Shown here piece by piece: positions 43 through 28,241 of a stretch of 32,000 bases of DNA (positions within the stretch are counted from its first letter, which is position 1; each line of letters starts with the position of its first letter). The notes beneath the pieces are model-generated. The model worked only from the letters and a program-made list of their open reading frames with translations. It had not been told where the DNA came from and searched no databases. Source of the DNA: Halomicrobium mukohataei DSM 12286 (lineage in GTDB: Archaea; Halobacteriota; Halobacteria; Halobacteriales; Haloarculaceae); NCBI RefSeq assembly GCF_000023965.1, contig NC_013202.1, forward strand, positions 1-32,000, in the 5' to 3' direction. The translations under genes and the position numbers were made by a program.

Positions 43-2643
43 GTGACGATACCGGAACACATCGAGATCGATCAGCCCCTTCTCGATGGACGGTCCGTCG
101 CGGCGGGGTTCCGGTCGAACGATCAGACGTGGTGTGACGGCCACAACCAGCTTCAGGGCCTTCTCAGGGTGTTGTACCCGGCCTATCGCGTCGAGTACAC
201 CTACGCCGTCGAGGGGCGGTTCCCGTGGTCGAGTCCGGCCCACGAACGCGAGTACGCGCTGCTCGACGGCCTCTGGGAGGACAACGACGCGGGACTGGCG
301 ATGCATCGCCACGCCGCAAGCGAGACGACGACGATCGATCCGCGGGCGCGCTACGGCGACGCGTCGGTGCCGACGGTCGCGCTCGGCTTCCACGGCGACG
401 AAGCGCGAGCGGCGTCCGTGTTGCCGACCCAGCTCGAACACGAGCGCGAACGGATCGACCGGCAGATCGAGCGGTGGCACGAACAGGCCGACACAGAGGC
501 CTCGGCGGGCAACCACACGAAGGCCCGGCGCTTCCGCGAGCAGGCCGACGCCTACGAGGGCGGCGATCCGCTTCGCGACCTCCGTGAGATCTACGGCTTG
601 CCAGACGGTGTCGACGCCGACTCCTTCGAGGGCGTCGAGTCGATCGATCGAGTGTCTCTCCCCTTCTGGATCGCCGAACTCGGTGCCCAGGACCAGTCCG
701 AACTGTGCTACGTCGCCGTCCGCCCGACCGACGAGGGCTGGGCGCGAGACACCATCACCTCCGTGGGCTGGCTCGAACAGTTCGTGGCGAGCCACCAGTC
801 GGTGCTCGAATCGGACGGCCACTGGCTGGGTGCCGAGGACGTGGCCGTCGAGAGCACGCAAGACCGGATCGACCGTCGGCGCGAGGAGTCGGACGACCGG
901 CCGGCTCGCAGGCAGGACGACGAGGTCGTCGACCCACCGGAGACGGAACTGCTCGACGCCCAGCGACTCGTCGATCCCAGTCCCGACCGGAGCTTCTCTG
1001 ACGTGGGCGGGATGACGGCGCTGAAAGAGACGCTGGAGGAGAAGGTGCTGAAGCCCCTCGAACACCCCGAGCGCTACCGGGAATACGGGCTCAGTACCGT
1101 CGACGGCGTCCTGTTGCACGGGCCGCCGGGCTGTGGGAAGACCTACATCACGGGCGCGCTGGCGGGCGAACTCGGCCAGTCGTTCGTCCGCGTCTCGCCG
1201 GCCGATCTCTCCAGTAAGTACATGGGCGAACCCGCACAGAAGGTCCAGGAGCTGTTCGCCATCGCCAGGGCGAACCAGCCCTGCCTGGTCTTTCTCGACG
1301 AACTGGACGCGGTCACGGTCGCGCGGGACAACGACGACTCGAACCAGAGCGAGCAGGGAATGGTCAACCAGCTCCTGACGGAACTGGAAGGCGTCCGCGA
1401 CGAGGACGTGGTCGTCGTCGGCGCGACCAACCACGTCGACGACATCGACAGCGCGATCCGGCGCTCTGGCCGCTTCGACGAGCGCATCGAGGTGCCGCCG
1501 CCCGACGCCGACGCCCGCCGCGAGATGCTCCGGGTCCACCTCGCCGGACGGCCCACGACCGAGGGCCTCGACCTGTCCGCGACCGTCTCCGCGACGGCGG
1601 GCTACGCCGCCAGCGACCTCGAACGCGTCGTCGACGAAGCGGCCCGCGCGGCGCTGGCAGACGACAGTCCGGTCGGGACCGACCACCTCCGGGCGGCCGC
1701 CGAGCGGACCGAGACGAGCATCGACGAGTGGATCGGCCGCTACGAGTTCGTCGCCGAGGAAACCGACGGGACGGGGACGGTCGTCCAGCCGTCGAGTGTC
1801 GACCACCTCCAGGCCGACGCGATCGTCAGCGGCGACGTGACTCGGACGTTCGACGACGTTGGCGGCATGACCGACCTGCAGACGACGCTCGAAGAGAAGG
1901 TACTGGAGCCACTACGCCAGCCCGAGCGGTTCGAACAGTACGGTCTCGAACCGACCAGCGGCGTCCTCCTGTACGGCCCGCCCGGCTGTGGGAAGACCTA
2001 CATCACCGAGGCACTGGCGGGCGAACTCGATCACTTCTTCGTCGAGATCTCGCCGGCAGAGCTGGTCAGCAAGTGGATGGGCGAGCCCGCCCAGCGCGTC
2101 GCGGACCTGTTCGAGATCGCGCGAGCGAACCAGCCCTGCCTGGTCTTTCTCGACGAGATCGACGCGGTCGCGGGGAGTCGCGGCTCCAGCACGAACCAGA
2201 GCGGCCAACAGCTGGTCAATCAGCTGTTGACCGAGCTGGAGGCCATCTCCGACGAGAACGTGATCGTCGTCGGCGCGACCAACCTGATCGAGGACGTCGA
2301 CGGTGCGATCCGGCGCTCTGGCCGCTTCGACGAGCGCGTCGAGGTGCCGCCGCCCGACGCCGACGCCCGCCGCGAGATCCTTCGGGTCCACCTCGCAGAT
2401 CGCCCCGTCGCCGACGGCGTCGACTGGGATCGGCTGGCGACCGCCACGGACGGGTACGCCGCCAGCGACCTCGAACTCGTCGCCGACGAGGCCGCCCACC
2501 GCGCGCTGCGGGCCGGCGACAGCGTCGACACGACGCACCTCCTGGACGCCGTCGAACGCACAGAGTCGAGCCTGCGCCAGTGGGACGACGGCCAGCGCTA
2601 CCAGCAGAGCGAGGACACGTCGGACCTCCGGTACTTCGGCTAG
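43..2643 (+). CDS. Tandem AAA+ ATPase (CDC48/VCP-like D1-D2) with a ~310-aa N-terminal region of unknown function
   Basis: Two Walker A motifs GPPGCGKTY, two Walker B motifs (CLVFLDELD / CLVFLDEID) and two arginine-finger regions (IRRSGRFDER). GTG start at 43. High GC at codon position 3. The N-terminal ~310 aa do not resemble the usual CDC48 N domain by eye. Confidence 0.85.
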   Translation: MTIPEHIEIDQPLLDGRSVAAGFRSNDQTWCDGHNQLQGLLRVLYPAYRVEYTYAVEGRFPWSSPAHEREYALLDGLWEDNDAGLAMHRHAASETTTIDPRARYGDASVPTVALGFHGDEARAASVLPTQLEHERERIDRQIERWHEQADTEASAGNHTKARRFREQADAYEGGDPLRDLREIYGLPDGVDADSFEGVESIDRVSLPFWIAELGAQDQSELCYVAVRPTDEGWARDTITSVGWLEQFVASHQSVLESDGHWLGAEDVAVESTQDRIDRRREESDDRPARRQDDEVVDPPETELLDAQRLVDPSPDRSFSDVGGMTALKETLEEKVLKPLEHPERYREYGLSTVDGVLLHGPPGCGKTYITGALAGELGQSFVRVSPADLSSKYMGEPAQKVQELFAIARANQPCLVFLDELDAVTVARDNDDSNQSEQGMVNQLLTELEGVRDEDVVVVGATNHVDDIDSAIRRSGRFDERIEVPPPDADARREMLRVHLAGRPTTEGLDLSATVSATAGYAASDLERVVDEAARAALADDSPVGTDHLRAAAERTETSIDEWIGRYEFVAEETDGTGTVVQPSSVDHLQADAIVSGDVTRTFDDVGGMTDLQTTLEEKVLEPLRQPERFEQYGLEPTSGVLLYGPPGCGKTYITEALAGELDHFFVEISPAELVSKWMGEPAQRVADLFEIARANQPCLVFLDEIDAVAGSRGSSTNQSGQQLVNQLLTELEAISDENVIVVGATNLIEDVDGAIRRSGRFDERVEVPPPDADARREILRVHLADRPVADGVDWDRLATATDGYAASDLELVADEAAHRALRAGDSVDTTHLLDAVERTESSLRQWDDGQRYQQSEDTSDLRYFG

Positions 2644-2669
2644 CGCGACGACGATTTTCGATCGCGAGT

Positions 2670-2685
2670 GTCGCTGTACAGCGAC
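2670..2685. repeat. Perfect 16-bp palindrome GTCGCTGTACAGCGAC between the AAA gene stop and the thi4 promoter
   Basis: Read directly from the sequence. It lies 27 nt after the TAG at 2641-2643 and about 80 nt upstream of the thi4 ATG. It could be a terminator hairpin or an operator. Confidence 0.5.
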
Positions 2686-2745
2686 GGCGTCGGTAGCTGT
2701 CGAATCGCGTCAGCGAGTCCAGACCGGAACCACTATTGCAACGTG

Positions 2746-2755
2746 GTGGTACCAC
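2746..2755. promoter_or_regulatory. 10-bp palindrome GTGGTACCAC between a TATA-like element (ACTATTGCA, about 2732-2740) and the thi4 start codon; candidate operator
   Basis: Perfect palindrome read directly. It sits at -9 to -18 relative to the ATG at 2764, a typical position for an archaeal repressor site. Confidence 0.35.
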
Positions 2756-2763
2756 TAGGTTGT

Positions 2764-3687
2764 ATGAGCGAATTCGAGCAGTTCAGCGACGTCGGTGAGG
2801 CGGAAGTCACACGCGCGATCGGGCAGGAGTGGACCGAGGAGTTCATGGACTTCTCGGACTCCGACGTGATCATCGTCGGCGGCGGCCCCTCCGGGCTGAC
2901 CGCGGCCAAGGAACTGGCCGAGCGCGGCGTCCAGGTCATGGTCGTCGAGAAGAACAACTACCTCGGCGGGGGCTTCTGGCTTGGCGGGTTCCTGATGAAC
3001 AAGGTCACCGTTCGAGACCCCGCACAGAACGTGCTGGACGAACTCGACGTGGACTACAAGCAGTCCCAGGACAGCGACGGACTCTACGTCGCCAACGGTC
3101 CCGAAGCCTGTTCCGGCCTGATCAAGGCCGCCTGTGACGCCGGTGCGAAGATGCAGAACATGACGGAGTTCACCGACATCGTCATCCGCGAGGACCACCG
3201 CGTCGGCGGGATCGTCATGAACTGGACGCCGGTCCACGCGCTGCCCCGCGAGATCACCTGCGTCGATCCGATCGCCGTCGAGGCCGACCTCGTCATCGAC
3301 GCGACGGGCCACGACGCGATGGCCGTCAAAAAGCTCGACGAGCGAGGCGTCCTCAACGCGCCCGGTCTCGAAGAGGAAGCCAGCGGCATGGATTCCACCG
3401 GCGACGACACCTACGGCGCACCGGGCCACGACTCGCCCGGCCACGACTCGATGTGGGTCGGCAAGAGCGAGGACGCCGTCGTCGAGCACACCGGCCTCGC
3501 CCACGACGGCCTCATCGTCACCGGGATGGCCACCGCGACCACCTACGGGCTGCCCCGCATGGGTCCGACCTTCGGTGCCATGCTGCTCTCGGGCAAGCGC
3601 GCCGCACAGGCCGCGCTGGACGAACTCGAAGTCGACGCCGAACCGGTCGACGTGACGGCGACGAACGCGACCCCCGCGGACGATTAG
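2764..3687 (+). CDS. thi4: Thiamine thiazole synthase Thi4 (archaeal/eukaryotic type)
   Basis: Dinucleotide-binding motif [11 protein letters not shown], then [18 protein letters not shown] and MGPTFGAM. The internal ATG at 2764 (MSEFEQF...) gives 307 aa. It retains a Cys in the TCVDP motif, which I recall as the sulfur-donor Cys position of cysteine-dependent Thi4 enzymes. Confidence 0.9.
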
Positions 3688-3845
3688 GGAGAGCCTGAGC
3701 GAAGAGAAGGGTCTCCGACGCGACCGCGGAGCAAAGCGATGCGGGAGCAGCGAGAGGGGCGCTGTGAGCGTAGCGAACAGCGGTCCTCGTCAGTGCGAGC
3801 GGGAGTGAGCGAAGCGAACGACACGCGGGCAGAGAGAGGGGATCG

Positions 3846-4313
3846 TTACAGCTCGAACTCGCTGTCGTCGTCCTCTTCGGGAGCCTCCTCGAAGGCCTCT
3901 GGCGGTTGGCCGGCCTCGTCGACGACCTCGTCGGAGACGATCAGCGGGCAGTCGACGCGCAGCGCGATCGCGATGCCGTCGGAGGGGCGAGCGTCGAACA
4001 CCATCTCTTTTCGTCGGTCGTCGAGGTACTGCTCGGTGTCGATCTTGGCGTAGAAGGTGCCGTCGGCCAGATCGTCGATCCGGACGCGATCGATCGCCGC
4101 ACCGAACTCCGCGACCATCTCGACCATGAGGTCGTGGGTCAACGGCCGCTCGAACGGTTCGCCTTCGAGTGCCAGCTGCATCGACTGGGCCTGGTCGGAG
4201 CTGACGAAGATGGGGACGACCTCCTCGCGCGCACGCAAGAGAACGACCGGCGCGCCGGGACCTTCCTCACCGACGCCGATTCCGACGCCTTCCACCGTGG
4301 CCTCGTGTTCCAT
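3846..4313 (-). CDS. Bifunctional nuclease domain protein (BFN/DUF151 family) with an acidic C-terminal tail
   Basis: Translation MEHEATVEGVGIGV...VVLLRAREEVVPIFVSSDQAQSMQLALEGEPFERPLTHDLMVEMV... matches my memory of the DUF151 fold family. The true ATG is at 4313. The listed ORF extension to 4562 runs through the non-coding element. Confidence 0.8.
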   Translation of the reverse strand: MEHEATVEGVGIGVGEEGPGAPVVLLRAREEVVPIFVSSDQAQSMQLALEGEPFERPLTHDLMVEMVAEFGAAIDRVRIDDLADGTFYAKIDTEQYLDDRRKEMVFDARPSDGIAIALRVDCPLIVSDEVVDEAGQPPEAFEEAPEEDDDSEFEL

Positions 4314-4335
4314 GTCCGACGGTTCGGTACGGAGG

Positions 4336-4344
4336 TATGAAAAG
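4336..4344 (-). promoter_or_regulatory. TATA-like box (CTTTTCATA on the minus strand) about 23 nt upstream of the nuclease-domain gene ATG; implies a leaderless or near-leaderless mRNA
   Basis: AT-rich motif in a GC-rich context. The same TTTTCA-type motif recurs at the same spacing before pfdB, dcd and the 18569-19333 gene. Confidence 0.4.
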
Positions 4345-4353
4345 CTGTGCAGT

Positions 4354-4361
4354 GGGCCACA
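4354..4361. repeat. Left copy of the 8-bp direct repeat GGGCCACA flanking the 4362-4743 element (candidate target-site duplication)
   Basis: Exact 8-mer, 4 nt outside the left inverted repeat. An identical 8-mer lies 4 nt outside the right inverted repeat. Confidence 0.45.
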
Positions 4362-4365
4362 GATC

Positions 4366-4378
4366 GTGTTCAGATAAG
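4366..4378. repeat. Left terminal inverted repeat GTGTTCAGATAAG
   Basis: Perfect reverse complement of 4727-4739. Confidence 0.7.
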
Positions 4379-4726
4379 CCGCTGCATCTTCTGAGTTGTA
4401 GACACCGAAAACCCTCGTACAGTTGCGGTCCCGCGACTCGCTGCGCGCGCTTCGCGTGCTTGCCGAGAGGGACTCTCCGAGTCCCTCTGGCCGTGCGAAC
4501 GGGCGCTTTGCGCCCGTGAGCAGACTTCGTCGGGGTTCCCGCAACTGTACTCGCCCTTTCATCCGCCAGGGTTCAGACTGTGAGGCAGCCGAATCCTGGC
4601 GGATGAAAGGGCGAGGCGCAGTCCGGGGTTCTGCGGCGGCACTATCCGAACGGAGTGAGGATATCTGCCACAGAACCTCGGAGCGTGCCGAGGGCTTTCG
4701 GTGCTTCAGACTGCCTGCACCGATCT

Positions 4727-4739
4727 CTTATCTGAACAC
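4727..4739. repeat. Right terminal inverted repeat CTTATCTGAACAC
   Basis: Perfect reverse complement of 4366-4378. Confidence 0.7.
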
Positions 4740-4743
4740 TACC

Positions 4744-4751
4744 GGGCCACA
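4744..4751. repeat. Right copy of the 8-bp direct repeat GGGCCACA
   Basis: Identical to 4354-4361 and placed symmetrically (4-nt spacer from the inverted repeat). Confidence 0.45.
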
Positions 4752-4791
4752 CCGGCGAGTAGTTTAGGGGCGTGGCGACGAAAGCCGAGTC

Positions 4792-5085
4792 GTGAGCGAC
4801 GAGTACCGGGTCGCGATCAAGCCCTCCGCCTGGCAGCGCTCGCGGGCGGTCGGCGAGTGGGTGAACCGCGACGGCGCTCGGCGGGGTTTCGCGTCGAAGG
4901 CGCTGGCCCGGGAGTGGGCCAGGGCGTGCTCGGGCCACGGCGTACACCTGTGGGTCCAGGACGCGCCGGACCGCGAGGATCGGCCGATCGACGGCTACCT
5001 CGTCGGCGGCGCGCGCGGGACCGACCGCGCTGCCGACGGGGGGAGACAGCAGTCACTCGCCGAGGGGACCGACAATCCCGGTTAA
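4792..5085 (+). CDS. Small hypothetical protein (97 aa), no recognisable domain
   Basis: GTG start. Codon position 3 is almost entirely G/C, as in neighbouring real genes. The composition is not the Arg/Pro-rich shadow type. Confidence 0.5.
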   Translation: MSDEYRVAIKPSAWQRSRAVGEWVNRDGARRGFASKALAREWARACSGHGVHLWVQDAPDREDRPIDGYLVGGARGTDRAADGGRQQSLAEGTDNPG

Positions 5086-21171: not shown

Positions 21172-21324
21172 GGTTGTGTCCTGCGAGTTATCGTCGCTGG
21201 CGAATTTCGCGCCCAGCCGCCGTGAGGCGACTTCCTCTATCCTCGTTGTCGGAATCCGACATAGTACTCGATGGTCAAGCGGCCGCCGCTGATTAATCTG
21301 TTGGGATCGTTTCGCACGGTCGGG

Positions 21325-28155: not shown

Positions 28156-28241
28156 CGCCGAGGGAGAGATTTGAACTCTCGTGTCCTGAACGGACAGTTG
28201 CTCTCGAAGCAACCGCCTTGGCCGGGCTAGGCTACCTCGGC
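28156..28241 (-). tRNA. tRNA-Ser (anticodon CGA), type II with a long variable arm; CCA not encoded
   Basis: My manual fold: acceptor GCCGAGG/CCUCGGC; D arm GCC..GGC; anticodon stem GUUGC/GCAAC with loop UUCGAGA; variable arm GUCC-GUUCA-GGAC; T arm GAGAG-UUCAAAU-CUCUC; discriminator G. Confidence 0.85.

What the first reader, a model, noticed from the sequence alone, without database searches (positions are those of the whole stretch)
4354..4751. 382-bp inverted-repeat-bounded, direct-repeat-flanked, helix-packed non-coding element (MITE-like insertion or novel structured RNA)
Seen directly in the sequence:
- The 13-bp perfect inverted repeats GTGTTCAGATAAG (4366-4378) and CTTATCTGAACAC (4727-4739) are each followed, 4 nt further out, by the same 8-mer GGGCCACA (4354-4361 and 4744-4751). 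This is the geometry of a target-site duplication around an element with about 17-bp imperfect terminal repeats.
- The arms remain complementary further in: CACCGAAAACCCTCG (4403-4417) pairs with CGAGGGCTTTCGGTG (4689-4703), 14 of 15 positions.
- The interior is not a simple foldback. A 12-bp perfect stem (4417-4428/4539-4550) closes a junction with three hairpins: 4443-4459, 4467-4487 (GAGGGACTC/GAGTCCCTC) and 4499-4517 (ACGGGCGC/GCGCCCGT).
- This is followed by a 20-bp perfect stem (4551-4570/4595-4614) with a 24-nt loop, and by a 16-bp stem (4622-4637/4667-4682).
- G-U versus A-C mismatches are split between the strands, so the transcribed strand cannot be assigned.
- No ORF in this region has credible composition. 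The element lies just outside the TATA-like box of the nuclease-domain gene.

I do not recognise it as any known RNA family. Independent multi-helix domains of this kind are unusual for a plain MITE.
Basis: seen in the sequence. Interest (0 to 1): 0.72.

Follow-up and report, generated by a model that had tools for sequence, protein, structure and literature searches.

The report
Haloarchaeal IS6-type MITE insertion
The 382-bp helix-rich sequence is a small non-coding jumping element (a MITE) that borrows the ends of the haloarchaeal insertion sequence ISH29. It landed recently between two Halomicrobium genes, so it is an ordinary kind of element, though with an unusually well-conserved folded core and a second tiny hairpin element nested inside it.

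Summary
Window 4362-4743 is a 382-bp non-autonomous transposable element flanked by an 8-bp target-site duplication, GGGCCACA.

- **Empty site:** eight related Halomicrobium loci carry the same intergenic region with one copy of the 8-mer and exactly 390 bp less.
- **Parent IS:** the right terminal repeat, GGTAGTGTTCAGATAAG, is identical (17/17) to the end of ISH29. ISH29 is a 697-bp haloarchaeal IS6-family element that makes 8-bp duplications.
- **Family:** dozens of relatives sit at other sites, each with its own 8-bp duplication. They occur in H. katesii, in Halomicrobium sp. IBSBa and in metagenomes.

The free-standing RNA gene branch is not.

Two features go beyond a plain MITE:
- The ~320-bp core folds into a four-way junction that is kept across 28 family members through many compensatory changes. 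G:T and A:C mismatches are about equally common, which points to a DNA-level constraint or a strand-neutral one, not a one-strand RNA.
- Positions 4463-4524 are a nested 62-bp double-hairpin module. It is absent from the closest relatives. It belongs to a dispersed repeat that also flanks a TnpB gene.

Verdict: new member of a known kind; modest interest.

The parts
4354..4361 (.). Left copy of the 8-bp target-site duplication GGGCCACA
   Evidence: Direct repeat D7. Related Halomicrobium loci L002-L009 have a single TGTGGCCC at this point.
4362..4743 (.). The 382-bp MITE, a non-autonomous element of the ISH29/ISH14 group of the IS6 family
   Evidence: It is exactly the extra DNA relative to the empty sites (390 bp = 382 + 8). 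Its terminal repeats equal those of ISH29. Its interior is unrelated to ISH29. Family members lie at other loci.
4362..4378 (+). Left terminal inverted repeat GATCGTGTTCAGATAAG (tip GA)
   Evidence: It matches ISH29-type ends, GG(C/T)(A/G)GTGTTCAGATAAG, at 15 of 17 positions.
4727..4743 (-). Right terminal inverted repeat; read inward it is GGTAGTGTTCAGATAAG
   Evidence: It is 17/17 identical to the right end of ISH29 on Halobacterium pNRC200. The same 17-mer occurs in at least 120 stretches, almost all from Halobacteria.
4744..4751 (.). Right copy of the 8-bp target-site duplication GGGCCACA
4403..4417 (.). Inner conserved box CACCGAAAACCCTCG, the 5' arm of the closing helix P1
   Evidence: It pairs with 4689-4703 (I4). 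This is helix 3: 15 pairs, 10 of them invariant in 28 sequences, 99% of cells paired.
4689..4703 (.). Inner conserved box CGAGGGCTTTCGGTG, the 3' arm of P1
   Evidence: This box was part of the metagenome search pattern, so its conservation in those copies is partly by selection. It is also conserved in the copies found without it.
4417..4550 (.). Left domain: the 12-bp stem P2 (4417-4428 / 4539-4550) closing the inner hairpin P3, which holds the nested insert
   Evidence: I7. Helices 4-8 show compensatory changes, for example UA to CG and GC to AU.
4463..4524 (+). Nested 62-bp double-hairpin module ('module A'; boundaries uncertain by 1 nt), with no terminal inverted repeat and no duplication
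   Evidence: It is absent from the 96%-identical H. katesii copy L085 and from the other 320-bp copies. Homologous double hairpins occur in haloarchaeal plasmids. Covariance model R1 finds it inside other ISH29-type MITEs, as solo copies in intergenic DNA, and on both sides of a TnpB gene.
4550..4615 (.). Hairpin P4, a 20-25-bp stem (CTCGCCCTTTCATCCGCCAGG / CCTGGCGGATGAAAGGGCGAG) that is conserved in sequence across the family
   Evidence: I1. This is helix 9: 20 pairs, 97.6% of cells paired, mostly invariant.
4622..4682 (.). Hairpin P5, a 16-bp outer stem plus inner stem, variable in sequence but conserved in structure
   Evidence: I2. These are helices 11-13. In helix 11, 9 of 13 pairs changed on both sides, with up to 4 pair types per position.
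3846..4313 (-). Flanking gene: bifunctional nuclease (BFN/DUF151) protein, 155 aa. A TATA-like TTTTCATA lies at 4336-4343, about 27 nt before its ATG
   Evidence: PF02577. The promoter assignment is read from the sequence and is an inference.
4792..5085 (+). Flanking gene: DUF8081 protein, 97 aa. A TATA-like TAGTTTAGG lies at 4760-4768, about 28 nt before its GTG
   Evidence: PF26297. The promoter assignment is read from the sequence and is an inference.

Best explanation
Window 4362-4743 is a 382-bp miniature inverted-repeat transposable element (MITE). It carries the terminal inverted repeats of the haloarchaeal ISH29/ISH14/ISHmu2 group of IS6-family insertion sequences but has no transposase gene.

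It was inserted recently, within the Halomicrobium mukohataei lineage, into the ~26-bp spacer between the two divergent TATA-like boxes of the BFN nuclease gene and the DUF8081 gene. The insertion duplicated the 8-bp target GGGCCACA.

Shown here:
- the insertion is precise;
- the ends are identical to ISH29 ends;
- the duplication length matches that of the parent IS;
- a family exists whose copies lie at many sites.

Inferred:
- A 211-aa IS6-type DDE transposase supplied in trans binds the 17-bp ends and moves the element. ISfinder lists ISHmu2 and ISHmu9 for this species.
- If archaeal IS6-like enzymes work like bacterial IS26 (replicative, through a cointegrate), clean single insertions would need resolution by homologous recombination. 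That should be easy between the many identical chromosome copies of a polyploid haloarchaeon.

The ~320-bp core is a four-way junction made of P1, P2/P3, P4 and P5. It is kept by compensatory change but shows no preference for G:T over A:C mismatches. The most likely reading is that the constraint acts on DNA. Either a fold-back or cruciform form of the element brings the two ends together and favours copies that still transpose, or the two arms of each palindrome correct each other. This step is inference.

Positions 4463-4524 are a later, separate insertion of a 62-bp double-hairpin module. This module is related to the end structures of haloarchaeal IS1341/TnpB-type elements, so it resembles a PATE (palindrome-associated transposable element).
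For: Empty site:
- The intergenic region is 478 bp in the window and in L001. It is 88-89 bp in eight related Halomicrobium loci.
- Those loci have one TGTGGCCC and otherwise near-identical flanks.

Ends and parent IS:
- The right end is 17/17 identical to ISH29, which is 697 bp long with the 8-bp duplication GATAGGCC.
- The ~697-bp elements that carry these ends encode a 211-aa protein. It scores 191 bits on NCBIfam NF033587 (IS6 family transposase; cutoff 125).
- An intact copy with the 8-bp duplication GATTCGAA lies in the Halomicrobium urmianum chromosome.

Literature:
- IS6 elements make 8-bp duplications and have GG tips and a cTGTt motif (PMC7986276).
- ISH29 is 697 bp, 211 aa, GG tips, 8-bp duplication. 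ISHmu2 of H. mukohataei CP001688 has a 13/14 repeat, ends GG/GA and an 8-bp duplication. ISfinder already lists IS6-family MITEs (PMC6807381).

Family:
- The 17-mer occurs in at least 120 genome stretches, nearly all from Halobacteria.
- Among distinct short elements bounded by these repeats, 13 of 36 from genomes and 9 of 31 from metagenomes have perfect 8/8 flanking duplications. The chance of that is about 1.5e-5 each.
- H. katesii holds at least 6 relatives at different sites. One is 96% identical to the window copy.
- Halomicrobium sp. IBSBa has an independent 369-bp relative about 1 kb away, with its own duplication and its own empty site.

Structure:
- 96.5% of cells pair, against about 40% when partners are slid.
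- 27 of 84 pairs changed on both sides, and 0 of 500 shuffles reach the observed values.
- Pairs with any G:T number 29, against 23 with any A:C.

Nested module.
Against: - No second copy lies in the 32-kb window. I could not scan the whole source genome, so the copy number there is unknown.
- The presence of a working transposase in that genome rests on the literature table, not on a test made here.
- The left tip is GA, not GG, and differs from the right end at 2 of 17 positions.
- The mechanism of archaeal IS6-like transposases has never been studied experimentally (PMC6807381), so the cointegrate route is an assumption.
- The strong covariation would also fit a functional RNA. Raw cell counts lean towards G:T (86 against 38), although most of that excess comes from two doubtful pairs.
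- Nothing tested here shows that the fold matters for transposition.
Confidence: 0.9

Rival explanations
1. The conserved four-way-junction core is a functional structured RNA, a new RNA family carried as cargo and spread by the MITE. The covariation then reflects selection on the RNA fold. This is compatible with the element being a MITE. It competes only on what the helices are for.
For: There is very strong covariation in 28 sequences. P5 keeps its stems while its sequence turns over. The RNA fold has z-scores of -13 to -15. Raw cell counts show more G:T than A:C, 86 against 38.
Against: - Nothing in Rfam matches, even at E <= 10, other than chance microRNA-like hits on the long hairpin.
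- Both strands fold equally well.
- After two doubtful pairs are removed, G:T and A:C are nearly equal (48 against 38 cells; 27 against 23 pairs).
- Almost all stems are perfect Watson-Crick palindromes.
- No conserved promoter-like A+T box stands out in the family alignment (by inspection).
- Copies carry 50-62-bp inserts at several positions inside helices. A functional RNA would tolerate that poorly.
Confidence: 0.1
2. The whole element is an IS200/IS605-type derivative (a PATE). It would be moved as single-stranded DNA by a Y1 transposase that recognises its hairpins, not by an IS6-type enzyme.
For: The interior is packed with hairpins. The nested module resembles the end structures that flank a TnpB gene. 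PATEs built from near-terminal palindromes are known in Haloquadratum (PMC3119063).
Against: By definition, IS200/IS605 elements and PATEs have no terminal inverted repeats and make no target duplication (PMC3119063). This element has 13/17-bp terminal inverted repeats identical to ISH29 ends and a perfect 8-bp duplication, as do its relatives.
Confidence: 0.02
3. It is an internally deleted remnant of a full ISH29-type insertion sequence, not a member of a distinct MITE family.
For: It has the same ends and the same duplication length as ISH29.
Against: Only the 17-bp ends match ISH29, and no interior segment aligns. The interior is shared instead with dozens of other short elements that have the same architecture.
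Confidence: 0.03
4. The repeats and helices are a chance feature of G+C-rich intergenic DNA.
For: The 8-mer repeat alone is not significant.
Against: The fold z-scores are -11 to -15. The insertion is precisely polymorphic. The family contains dozens of copies.
Confidence: 0.005

Closest known systems
ISH29 / ISH14 / ISH15 / ISHmu2 group of haloarchaeal IS6-family insertion sequences (about 697 bp, 211-aa DDE transposase)
   Same: The terminal inverted repeats are the same: 17/17 with the ISH29 right end, with a GG tip and TGTT at positions 6-9. The target duplication is 8 bp. The host range is Halobacteria (PMC6807381 Table 5).
   Different: The MITE has no transposase gene. Its interior is unrelated to the IS. 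It is about half the length. Its left tip is GA.
IS6-family MITEs already listed in ISfinder (MITEHarch3 from halophilic archaeon DL31; MITEBth2), of 227 and 336 bp
   Same: They are the same kind of element: IS6-type ends and no transposase (PMC6807381, PMC7986276).
   Different: No full-length match was found in any PLSDB haloarchaeal plasmid.
Haloquadratum walsbyi MITEs, PATEs and small mobile repeats (Dyall-Smith et al. 2011, PMC3119063)
   Same: Their MITEs share only the terminal bases and the duplication length with the parent transposon. Elements lie nested inside other elements. There are very short (52-bp) palindrome-only derivatives of IS605-type transposons. Mobility is inferred from strain-specific insertions.
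   Different: The organism and the sequences differ. That paper does not describe an IS6-type MITE, and its supplements do not mention ISH14, ISH29 or this repeat. It reports no covariation analysis of a conserved core.
Bacterial structured MITEs such as Neisseria Correia elements, ERIC, RUP and BOX (from my own knowledge, not tested here)
   Same: They are short, terminal-repeat-bounded, non-coding elements that fold into long stem-loops and sit in intergenic regions next to promoters.
   Different: They are unrelated in sequence and have different parent transposases. For several of them RNA-level effects have been shown, whereas none is shown here.

Membership tests
MITE of the IS6 family (ISH29/ISH14 group) | Terminal inverted repeats that match those of the parent IS | tested here: met
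   The right end GGTAGTGTTCAGATAAG is 17/17 identical to the ISH29 right end. The left end matches ISH29-type ends at 15 of 17 positions.
MITE of the IS6 family (ISH29/ISH14 group) | Target-site duplication of the parent's length (8 bp) | tested here: met
   GGGCCACA lies on both sides, and the empty site has one copy. ISH29 has GATAGGCC, the H. urmianum IS has GATTCGAA, and 16 of 36 IS-size copies have perfect 8/8 duplications.
MITE of the IS6 family (ISH29/ISH14 group) | Too short for a transposase and carrying none; interior unrelated to the IS | tested here: met
   The element is 382 bp. Family members differ by 52-62-bp indels that are not multiples of three. The ORF that runs through it is an annotation artefact. 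Only the ends align to ISH29.
MITE of the IS6 family (ISH29/ISH14 group) | Multiple copies at different sites, each with its own duplication | tested here: met
   H. katesii has L085 (GTGCAGTT), L040 (GTATGAGT), L047 (GTTTCTTT) and L116 (TGCGGAGT). IBSBa has L009 (GCCGACCG). About 30 distinct copies come from metagenomes. Copy number in the source genome itself could not be measured.
MITE of the IS6 family (ISH29/ISH14 group) | Insertion polymorphism: the site is empty in relatives | tested here: met
   Eight loci, L002-L009, lack the element precisely. There is a second example for the L009 copy against L002.
MITE of the IS6 family (ISH29/ISH14 group) | A cognate autonomous IS that supplies transposase in the same genome | not tested
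   The literature table lists ISHmu2 (ends GG/GA, 8-bp duplication) and ISHmu9 from H. mukohataei CP001688. An intact copy was verified only in H. urmianum.
Structured non-coding RNA gene | Match to a described RNA family | tested here: not met
   Rfam 15 gives no match at gathering thresholds. At E <= 10 there are only chance microRNA-like hits on the long hairpin.
Structured non-coding RNA gene | Covariation that supports a conserved fold | tested here: met
   96.5% of cells pair, 27 pairs changed on both sides, 0 of 500 shuffles reach this, and slid controls give about 40%.
Structured non-coding RNA gene | Strand-specific signature: G:U tolerated, A:C avoided | tested here: inconclusive
   Raw cells are 86 G:T against 38 A:C, but 38 of the G:T cells come from two doubtful pairs. 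Pairs with any G:T number 29 and pairs with any A:C number 23.
Structured non-coding RNA gene | Conserved syntenic position as a single-copy gene | tested here: not met
   It is absent from the syntenic site in close relatives and present at many unrelated sites.
Structured non-coding RNA gene | A discrete transcript | not testable with these tools
   No expression data are available here.
PATE / IS200-IS605-type terminal-only element (applied to the nested 62-bp module only) | No terminal inverted repeats and no target duplication | tested here: met
   Window against L085...GTGCTTG[62 bp]C(T/A)TCGTC..., with no duplication beyond one ambiguous C. The module starts CCGAGAGGG and ends GAGCAGA, which are not inverted repeats.
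PATE / IS200-IS605-type terminal-only element (applied to the nested 62-bp module only) | Near-terminal palindromes similar to those at the ends of IS605-type (TnpB) transposons | tested here: met
   Model R1 hits both sides of an annotated TnpB gene in inverted orientation (L192 2483-2549 on + and 3889-3952 on -; gene at 2625-3869). It also hits the 3' end of a TnpB gene in L010.
PATE / IS200-IS605-type terminal-only element (applied to the nested 62-bp module only) | Mobilisation by a Y1 (TnpA) transposase at a specific target motif | not tested
   I could not derive a common target motif from the few filled/empty pairs. The presence of TnpA was not examined.

The most novel reading that the evidence does not exclude
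The conserved, covarying four-way junction is a functional nucleic-acid structure, not a by-product. One possibility is a fold-back or cruciform DNA form that archaeal IS6-like transposases need in order to move short elements in trans. That would make this family a natural probe of a transposition mechanism never studied in archaea. The other possibility is a new structured RNA spread by a MITE. In addition, the hairpin loops of these MITEs may serve as preferred landing sites for a second layer of ~50-62-bp double-hairpin mobile modules related to the ends of TnpB elements.
Probability: 0.2. Interest if true: 0.6.

Novelty: new member of a known kind. Interest (0 to 1): 0.3.

Why it matters
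- **Annotation.** The element explains an odd 478-bp intergenic region. It also corrects the 238-aa "DUF151" protein of H. mukohataei DSM 12286, which is a 155-aa protein with a false N-terminal extension read through the MITE.
- **Mobile-element biology.** It documents a sizeable family of IS6-type MITEs in Halomicrobium and relatives that was active recently and makes clean 8-bp duplications. This bears on how archaeal IS6-like transposases work, for which no experimental data exist.
- **Open question.** The core keeps its fold through compensatory changes with no strand bias, and several kinds of double-hairpin module are nested at different places. This gives a tractable system for asking whether DNA secondary structure is selected in non-autonomous elements.
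- **Limits.** None of this is a new kind of system.

Tried and rejected
- **Rfam.** A scan of the whole window and a permissive scan of 4200-4900 found no family for the element.
- **BLASTN.** A search of the element against PLSDB plasmids and INPHARED phages gave no full-length relative. The only hits were 45-50-nt matches, which turned out to be the nested module.
- **Another copy in the window.** None was found.
- **Copy number in the source genome through ORFs called on MITE copies.** A protein search with a 107-aa MITE reading frame gave only one weak hit and was uninformative.
- **H. mukohataei's own IS6 transposase.** A protein search listed only the best 120 of 2524 hits and none was from H. 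mukohataei. An H. urmianum copy was used instead.
- **Literature.** Searches for a named MITE of this family, and of the Haloquadratum paper's supplements for ISH14, ISH29 or the repeat sequence, found nothing.
- **Whole element as a PATE or IS605 derivative.** Considered and rejected, because the element has terminal repeats and a duplication.
- **ISH29 deletion derivative.** Considered and rejected, because the interior is unrelated.
- **Target motif for the nested module.** I tried to derive one from its flanks but could not.
Full report
**1. Observation**

- A perfect 13-bp inverted repeat, GTGTTCAGATAAG, lies at 4366-4378 and 4727-4739. It has two matches in the window against 0.12 expected, even allowing two mismatches.
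- The 8-mer GGGCCACA lies at 4354-4361 and 4744-4751, 4 nt outside each repeat.
- 4403-4417 pairs with 4689-4703 at 14 of 15 positions.
- A perfect 12-bp stem joins 4417-4428 and 4539-4550.
- The long stem 4550-4574 / 4591-4615 is 25 nt at 96%.
- The stem 4622-4637 / 4667-4682 has 14 Watson-Crick pairs plus one G:T and one C:A.

The 398 nt fold far better than shuffled sequence on either strand. As RNA the values are -244.5 and -244.4 kcal/mol, z = -13.2 and -15.0. The + strand of the 382-bp element (the only strand folded with DNA parameters) gives -129 kcal/mol as single-stranded DNA, z = -10.9. The repeated 8-mer by itself is not significant, because 12 of 100 shuffles give two copies. Its meaning comes from what follows.

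**2. Source and context**

The flanking proteins place the window in Halomicrobium mukohataei or a near relative.
- The 155-aa BFN/DUF151 nuclease-family protein (3846-4313, minus strand) is identical in two >3-Mb chromosomes.
- On the other side lies a 97-aa DUF8081 gene (4792-5085, plus strand).
- The two genes diverge.
- TATA-like boxes lie about 27-28 nt before each start codon, at 4336-4343 and 4760-4768. This is read from the sequence and is an inference.

**3. It is an insertion**

In the window and in L001 the intergenic region is 478 bp. In eight other Halomicrobium loci it is 88-89 bp. These comprise four genomes of H. mukohataei-like strains, H. katesii, strain IBSBa and three metagenome contigs.

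Written out side by side, the relatives read ...CTCGCTGG TGTGGCCC ACTGCACAGC... with one copy of the 8-mer. The window reads ...GG TGTGGCCC [382 bp] TGTGGCCC ACTGCACAGC.... The extra DNA is exactly 382 + 8 = 390 bp. The bases just outside the 8-mers differ, so the duplication is exactly 8 bp.

H. mukohataei DSM 12286 carries the same insertion. Its annotated 238-aa "DUF151" protein (P0002) begins with 83 residues that are the exact translation through the element. That extension is an annotation artefact.

**4. Whose ends are these?**

The inward-reading right end is GGTAGTGTTCAGATAAG.

Pairing forward and reverse copies of the 13-bp core in those loci gave two classes.
- The dominant class is a 696-701-bp element. 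Its ends are GGTAGTGTTCAGATAAGCTG and GGCGGTGTTCAGATAAGGAT. It occurs in many genera, and 16 of 36 distinct copies have perfect 8-bp flanking duplications.
- Its single ORF is a 211-aa protein that scores 191 bits on NCBIfam NF033587, "IS6 family transposase" (cutoff 125). It scores 26 bits on Pfam DDE_Tnp_IS240, just under the cutoff of 27.
- The copy on Halobacterium pNRC200 is annotated "IS6-like element ISH29 family transposase". It is 697 bp, ends GGCAGTGTTCAGATAAG... / GGTAGTGTTCAGATAAG..., and is flanked by GATAGGCC on both sides.

The window element's right end is therefore 17/17 identical to an ISH29 end. Its left end, GATCGTGTTCAGATAAG, matches at 15 of 17 positions. Outside the ends nothing aligns between the element and ISH29.

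The literature agrees.
- IS6 elements make 8-bp duplications and have GG tips and a cTGTt motif (PMC7986276).
- ISH14, ISH29 and ISHarch12-14 are 696-698 bp with 211-aa transposases and 8-bp duplications.
- H. mukohataei CP001688 contributes ISHmu2 (repeat 13/14, ends GG/GA, 8-bp duplication) and ISHmu9.
- ISfinder already lists two IS6-family MITEs, MITEHarch3 and MITEBth2 (PMC6807381).
- An intact ISH29-like IS with the 8-bp duplication GATTCGAA lies in the H. urmianum chromosome.

**5. A family of copies**

The second class is short elements of 122-481 bp bounded by the same repeats. Of 36 distinct ones, 13 have perfect 8/8 duplications and four have 7/8.

Close relatives of the window element sit at six different places in H. 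katesii DSM 19301, most with their own duplications:
- L085, 320 bp, 96% identical, duplication GTGCAGTT;
- L040, 264 bp, GTATGAGT;
- L047 and L116, 320 bp, about 90% identical, GTTTCTTT and TGCGGAGT;
- L083 and L018.

Strain IBSBa has an independent 369-bp relative only about 1 kb from the window's site. It is flanked by GCCGACCG, and the other strains have a clean empty site there.

A metagenome scan used a family-specific pattern for the right end. It gave 58 stretches and about 30 distinct elements of 316-395 bp. Nine have perfect 8-bp duplications and eight have 7/8.

Every criterion for a MITE is met except two. I could not count copies in the source genome, and I could not check its transposase directly.

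**6. The helices**

An alignment of 28 family members (A2) shows a common ~320-bp core.
- The 17-bp ends come first.
- A ~22-nt variable segment follows at each end.
- An invariant inner box, CACCGAAAGCCCTCG, pairs with its inverted partner to form P1.
- P2 (12 bp) closes an inner hairpin, P3.
- P4 is a 20-bp stem that is conserved in sequence.
- P5 has a 16-bp outer stem and a 5-bp inner stem.
- P1, P2, P4 and P5 meet with 0-6 unpaired bases between them, forming a four-way junction.

On this alignment 96.5% of cells form standard pairs, against 37-44% when partners are slid by 1-3 columns. Twenty-seven of 84 pairs show changes on both sides. None of 500 column shuffles reaches the observed values. 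In P5, nine of 13 pairs covary, with up to four pair types per position. Examples are TCCGGGGTTCTG/CAGAACCCCGGA, TAGCCGGATCTG/CAGATCCGGCTA and TAACCAGATCTG/CAGATCTGGTTA.

The fold is therefore maintained. It is not simply a young palindrome.

The signature is not that of a one-strand RNA.
- Both strands fold equally well.
- G:T and A:C mismatches occur at similar numbers of pairs, 29 against 23.
- The raw excess of G:T cells (86 against 38) comes mostly from two doubtful pairs.

I read this as a constraint on DNA, or a strand-neutral process such as mutual correction of palindrome arms. The RNA reading stays open at about 10%.

**7. A nested second element**

Compared with its 96%-identical H. 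katesii relative and all other 320-bp copies, the window element has 62 extra bases. They lie at 4463-4524 (boundaries uncertain by 1 nt) in the loop region of P3. The sequence is CCGAGAGGGACTCTCCGAGTCCCTCTGGCCGTGCGAACGGGCGCTTTGCGCCCGTGAGCAGA. The insert has no terminal inverted repeat and no duplication.

This piece alone produced the partial plasmid hits. The hits are homologous double hairpins with compensatory changes in the first hairpin.

A covariance model built from six copies (R1) finds the module in several contexts:
- inside at least seven other ISH29-type MITEs (L020, L044, L061, L107, L128, L158 and L169);
- as solo copies in intergenic DNA next to housekeeping genes (L180, L142 and L162);
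- on both sides of an annotated TnpB gene in inverted orientation (L192);
- at the 3' end of another TnpB gene (L010).

In L158 the module sits at the same place as in the window. In L169 it is inverted.

Other family members carry different ~50-60-bp double-hairpin inserts at other positions and in either orientation. This fits the palindrome-associated, terminal-only derivatives of IS605-type transposons described in Haloquadratum (PMC3119063). I could not derive a target motif for it.

**8. Mechanism**

Shown:
- precise insertion with an 8-bp duplication;
- ends identical to those of an IS6-family IS;
- no coding capacity;
- recent activity in several Halomicrobium lineages.

Inferred:
- The element is mobilised in trans by a 211-aa IS6-type DDE transposase.
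- If the enzyme acts replicatively like IS26, simple insertions require cointegrate resolution. That should be easy between identical chromosome copies in polyploid haloarchaea. No experiment exists for archaeal IS6-like enzymes (PMC6807381), so a direct simple-insertion pathway is equally possible.
- The element landed in the ~26-bp spacer between two divergent TATA-like boxes, leaving both intact. This is probably why it is tolerated. Whether it alters their regulation is unknown.

**9. Verdict**

This is a new member of a known kind, a haloarchaeal IS6-type MITE. It is not a new RNA gene. Its conserved, covarying, strand-symmetric core and its nested hairpin module are of modest specialist interest.

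Noticed in passing
window 3846-4562 (minus strand): The 238-aa ORF annotated in H. mukohataei DSM 12286 as 'protein of unknown function DUF151' (P0002) is the 155-aa BFN protein with a false 83-residue N-terminal extension translated through the MITE. Relatives without the MITE have the 155-aa form.
   Followed up: yes
L009 1064-1432 (Halomicrobium sp. IBSBa, GCA_017612575.1): An independent 369-bp relative of the MITE (about 71% identical) is inserted about 1 kb from the window's site, between the DUF8142 gene and the next gene. It has its own 8-bp duplication GCCGACCG, and the other strains have a clean empty site there.
   Followed up: yes
window 4463-4524; also L192 2483-2549 and 3889-3952, L010 1989-2057, L180 2452-2520, L142 6233-6301 and 7269-7337, L162 5322-5390: A dispersed ~62-65-bp double-hairpin repeat, in which hairpin 1 is variable with compensatory changes and is followed by the conserved GCGAACGGGCGCTTCGCGCCCGTGAGCAGA. 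It occurs inside several unrelated ISH29-type MITEs, as solo copies in intergenic DNA, and on both sides of a TnpB gene in inverted orientation. The second hairpin contains a tandem G.A/A.G step.
   Followed up: partly
alignment A2: L173/L009/L154; L134/L140/L160/L149; L181/L149; L141/L149: At least four further kinds of ~50-60-bp double-hairpin insert occur at different positions, and in one case in both orientations, within members of the same MITE family. The hairpin arms stay complementary while their sequence changes.
   Followed up: partly
L003 3149-4520 (GCA_041530035.1): One Halomicrobium strain has a strain-specific IS605-type OrfB/TnpB gene (414 aa) plus a 40-aa ORF inserted just downstream of the same BFN gene. 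The other strains lack it.
   Followed up: no
loci, 696-701-bp class: Twenty of 36 distinct full-length ISH29-type copies have no matching 8-bp flanks. This is what recombination between copies, or intramolecular replicative transposition, would leave behind.
   Followed up: no
L193 770-794 (ISH29, pNRC200); L194 1020-1044: The transposase reading frame of ISH29-type elements runs into the right terminal repeat, and its stop codon TGA lies inside the repeat (...W N Q L I stop = tggaatcagcttatcTGA).
   Followed up: no
window 21199-21251 (minus strand) and 28156-28241 (minus strand): Rfam finds a leuA-Halobacteria cis-regulatory RNA (69.8 bits) and a tRNA. ARAGORN calls the tRNA tRNA-Ser(CGA), 86 nt.
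   Followed up: no
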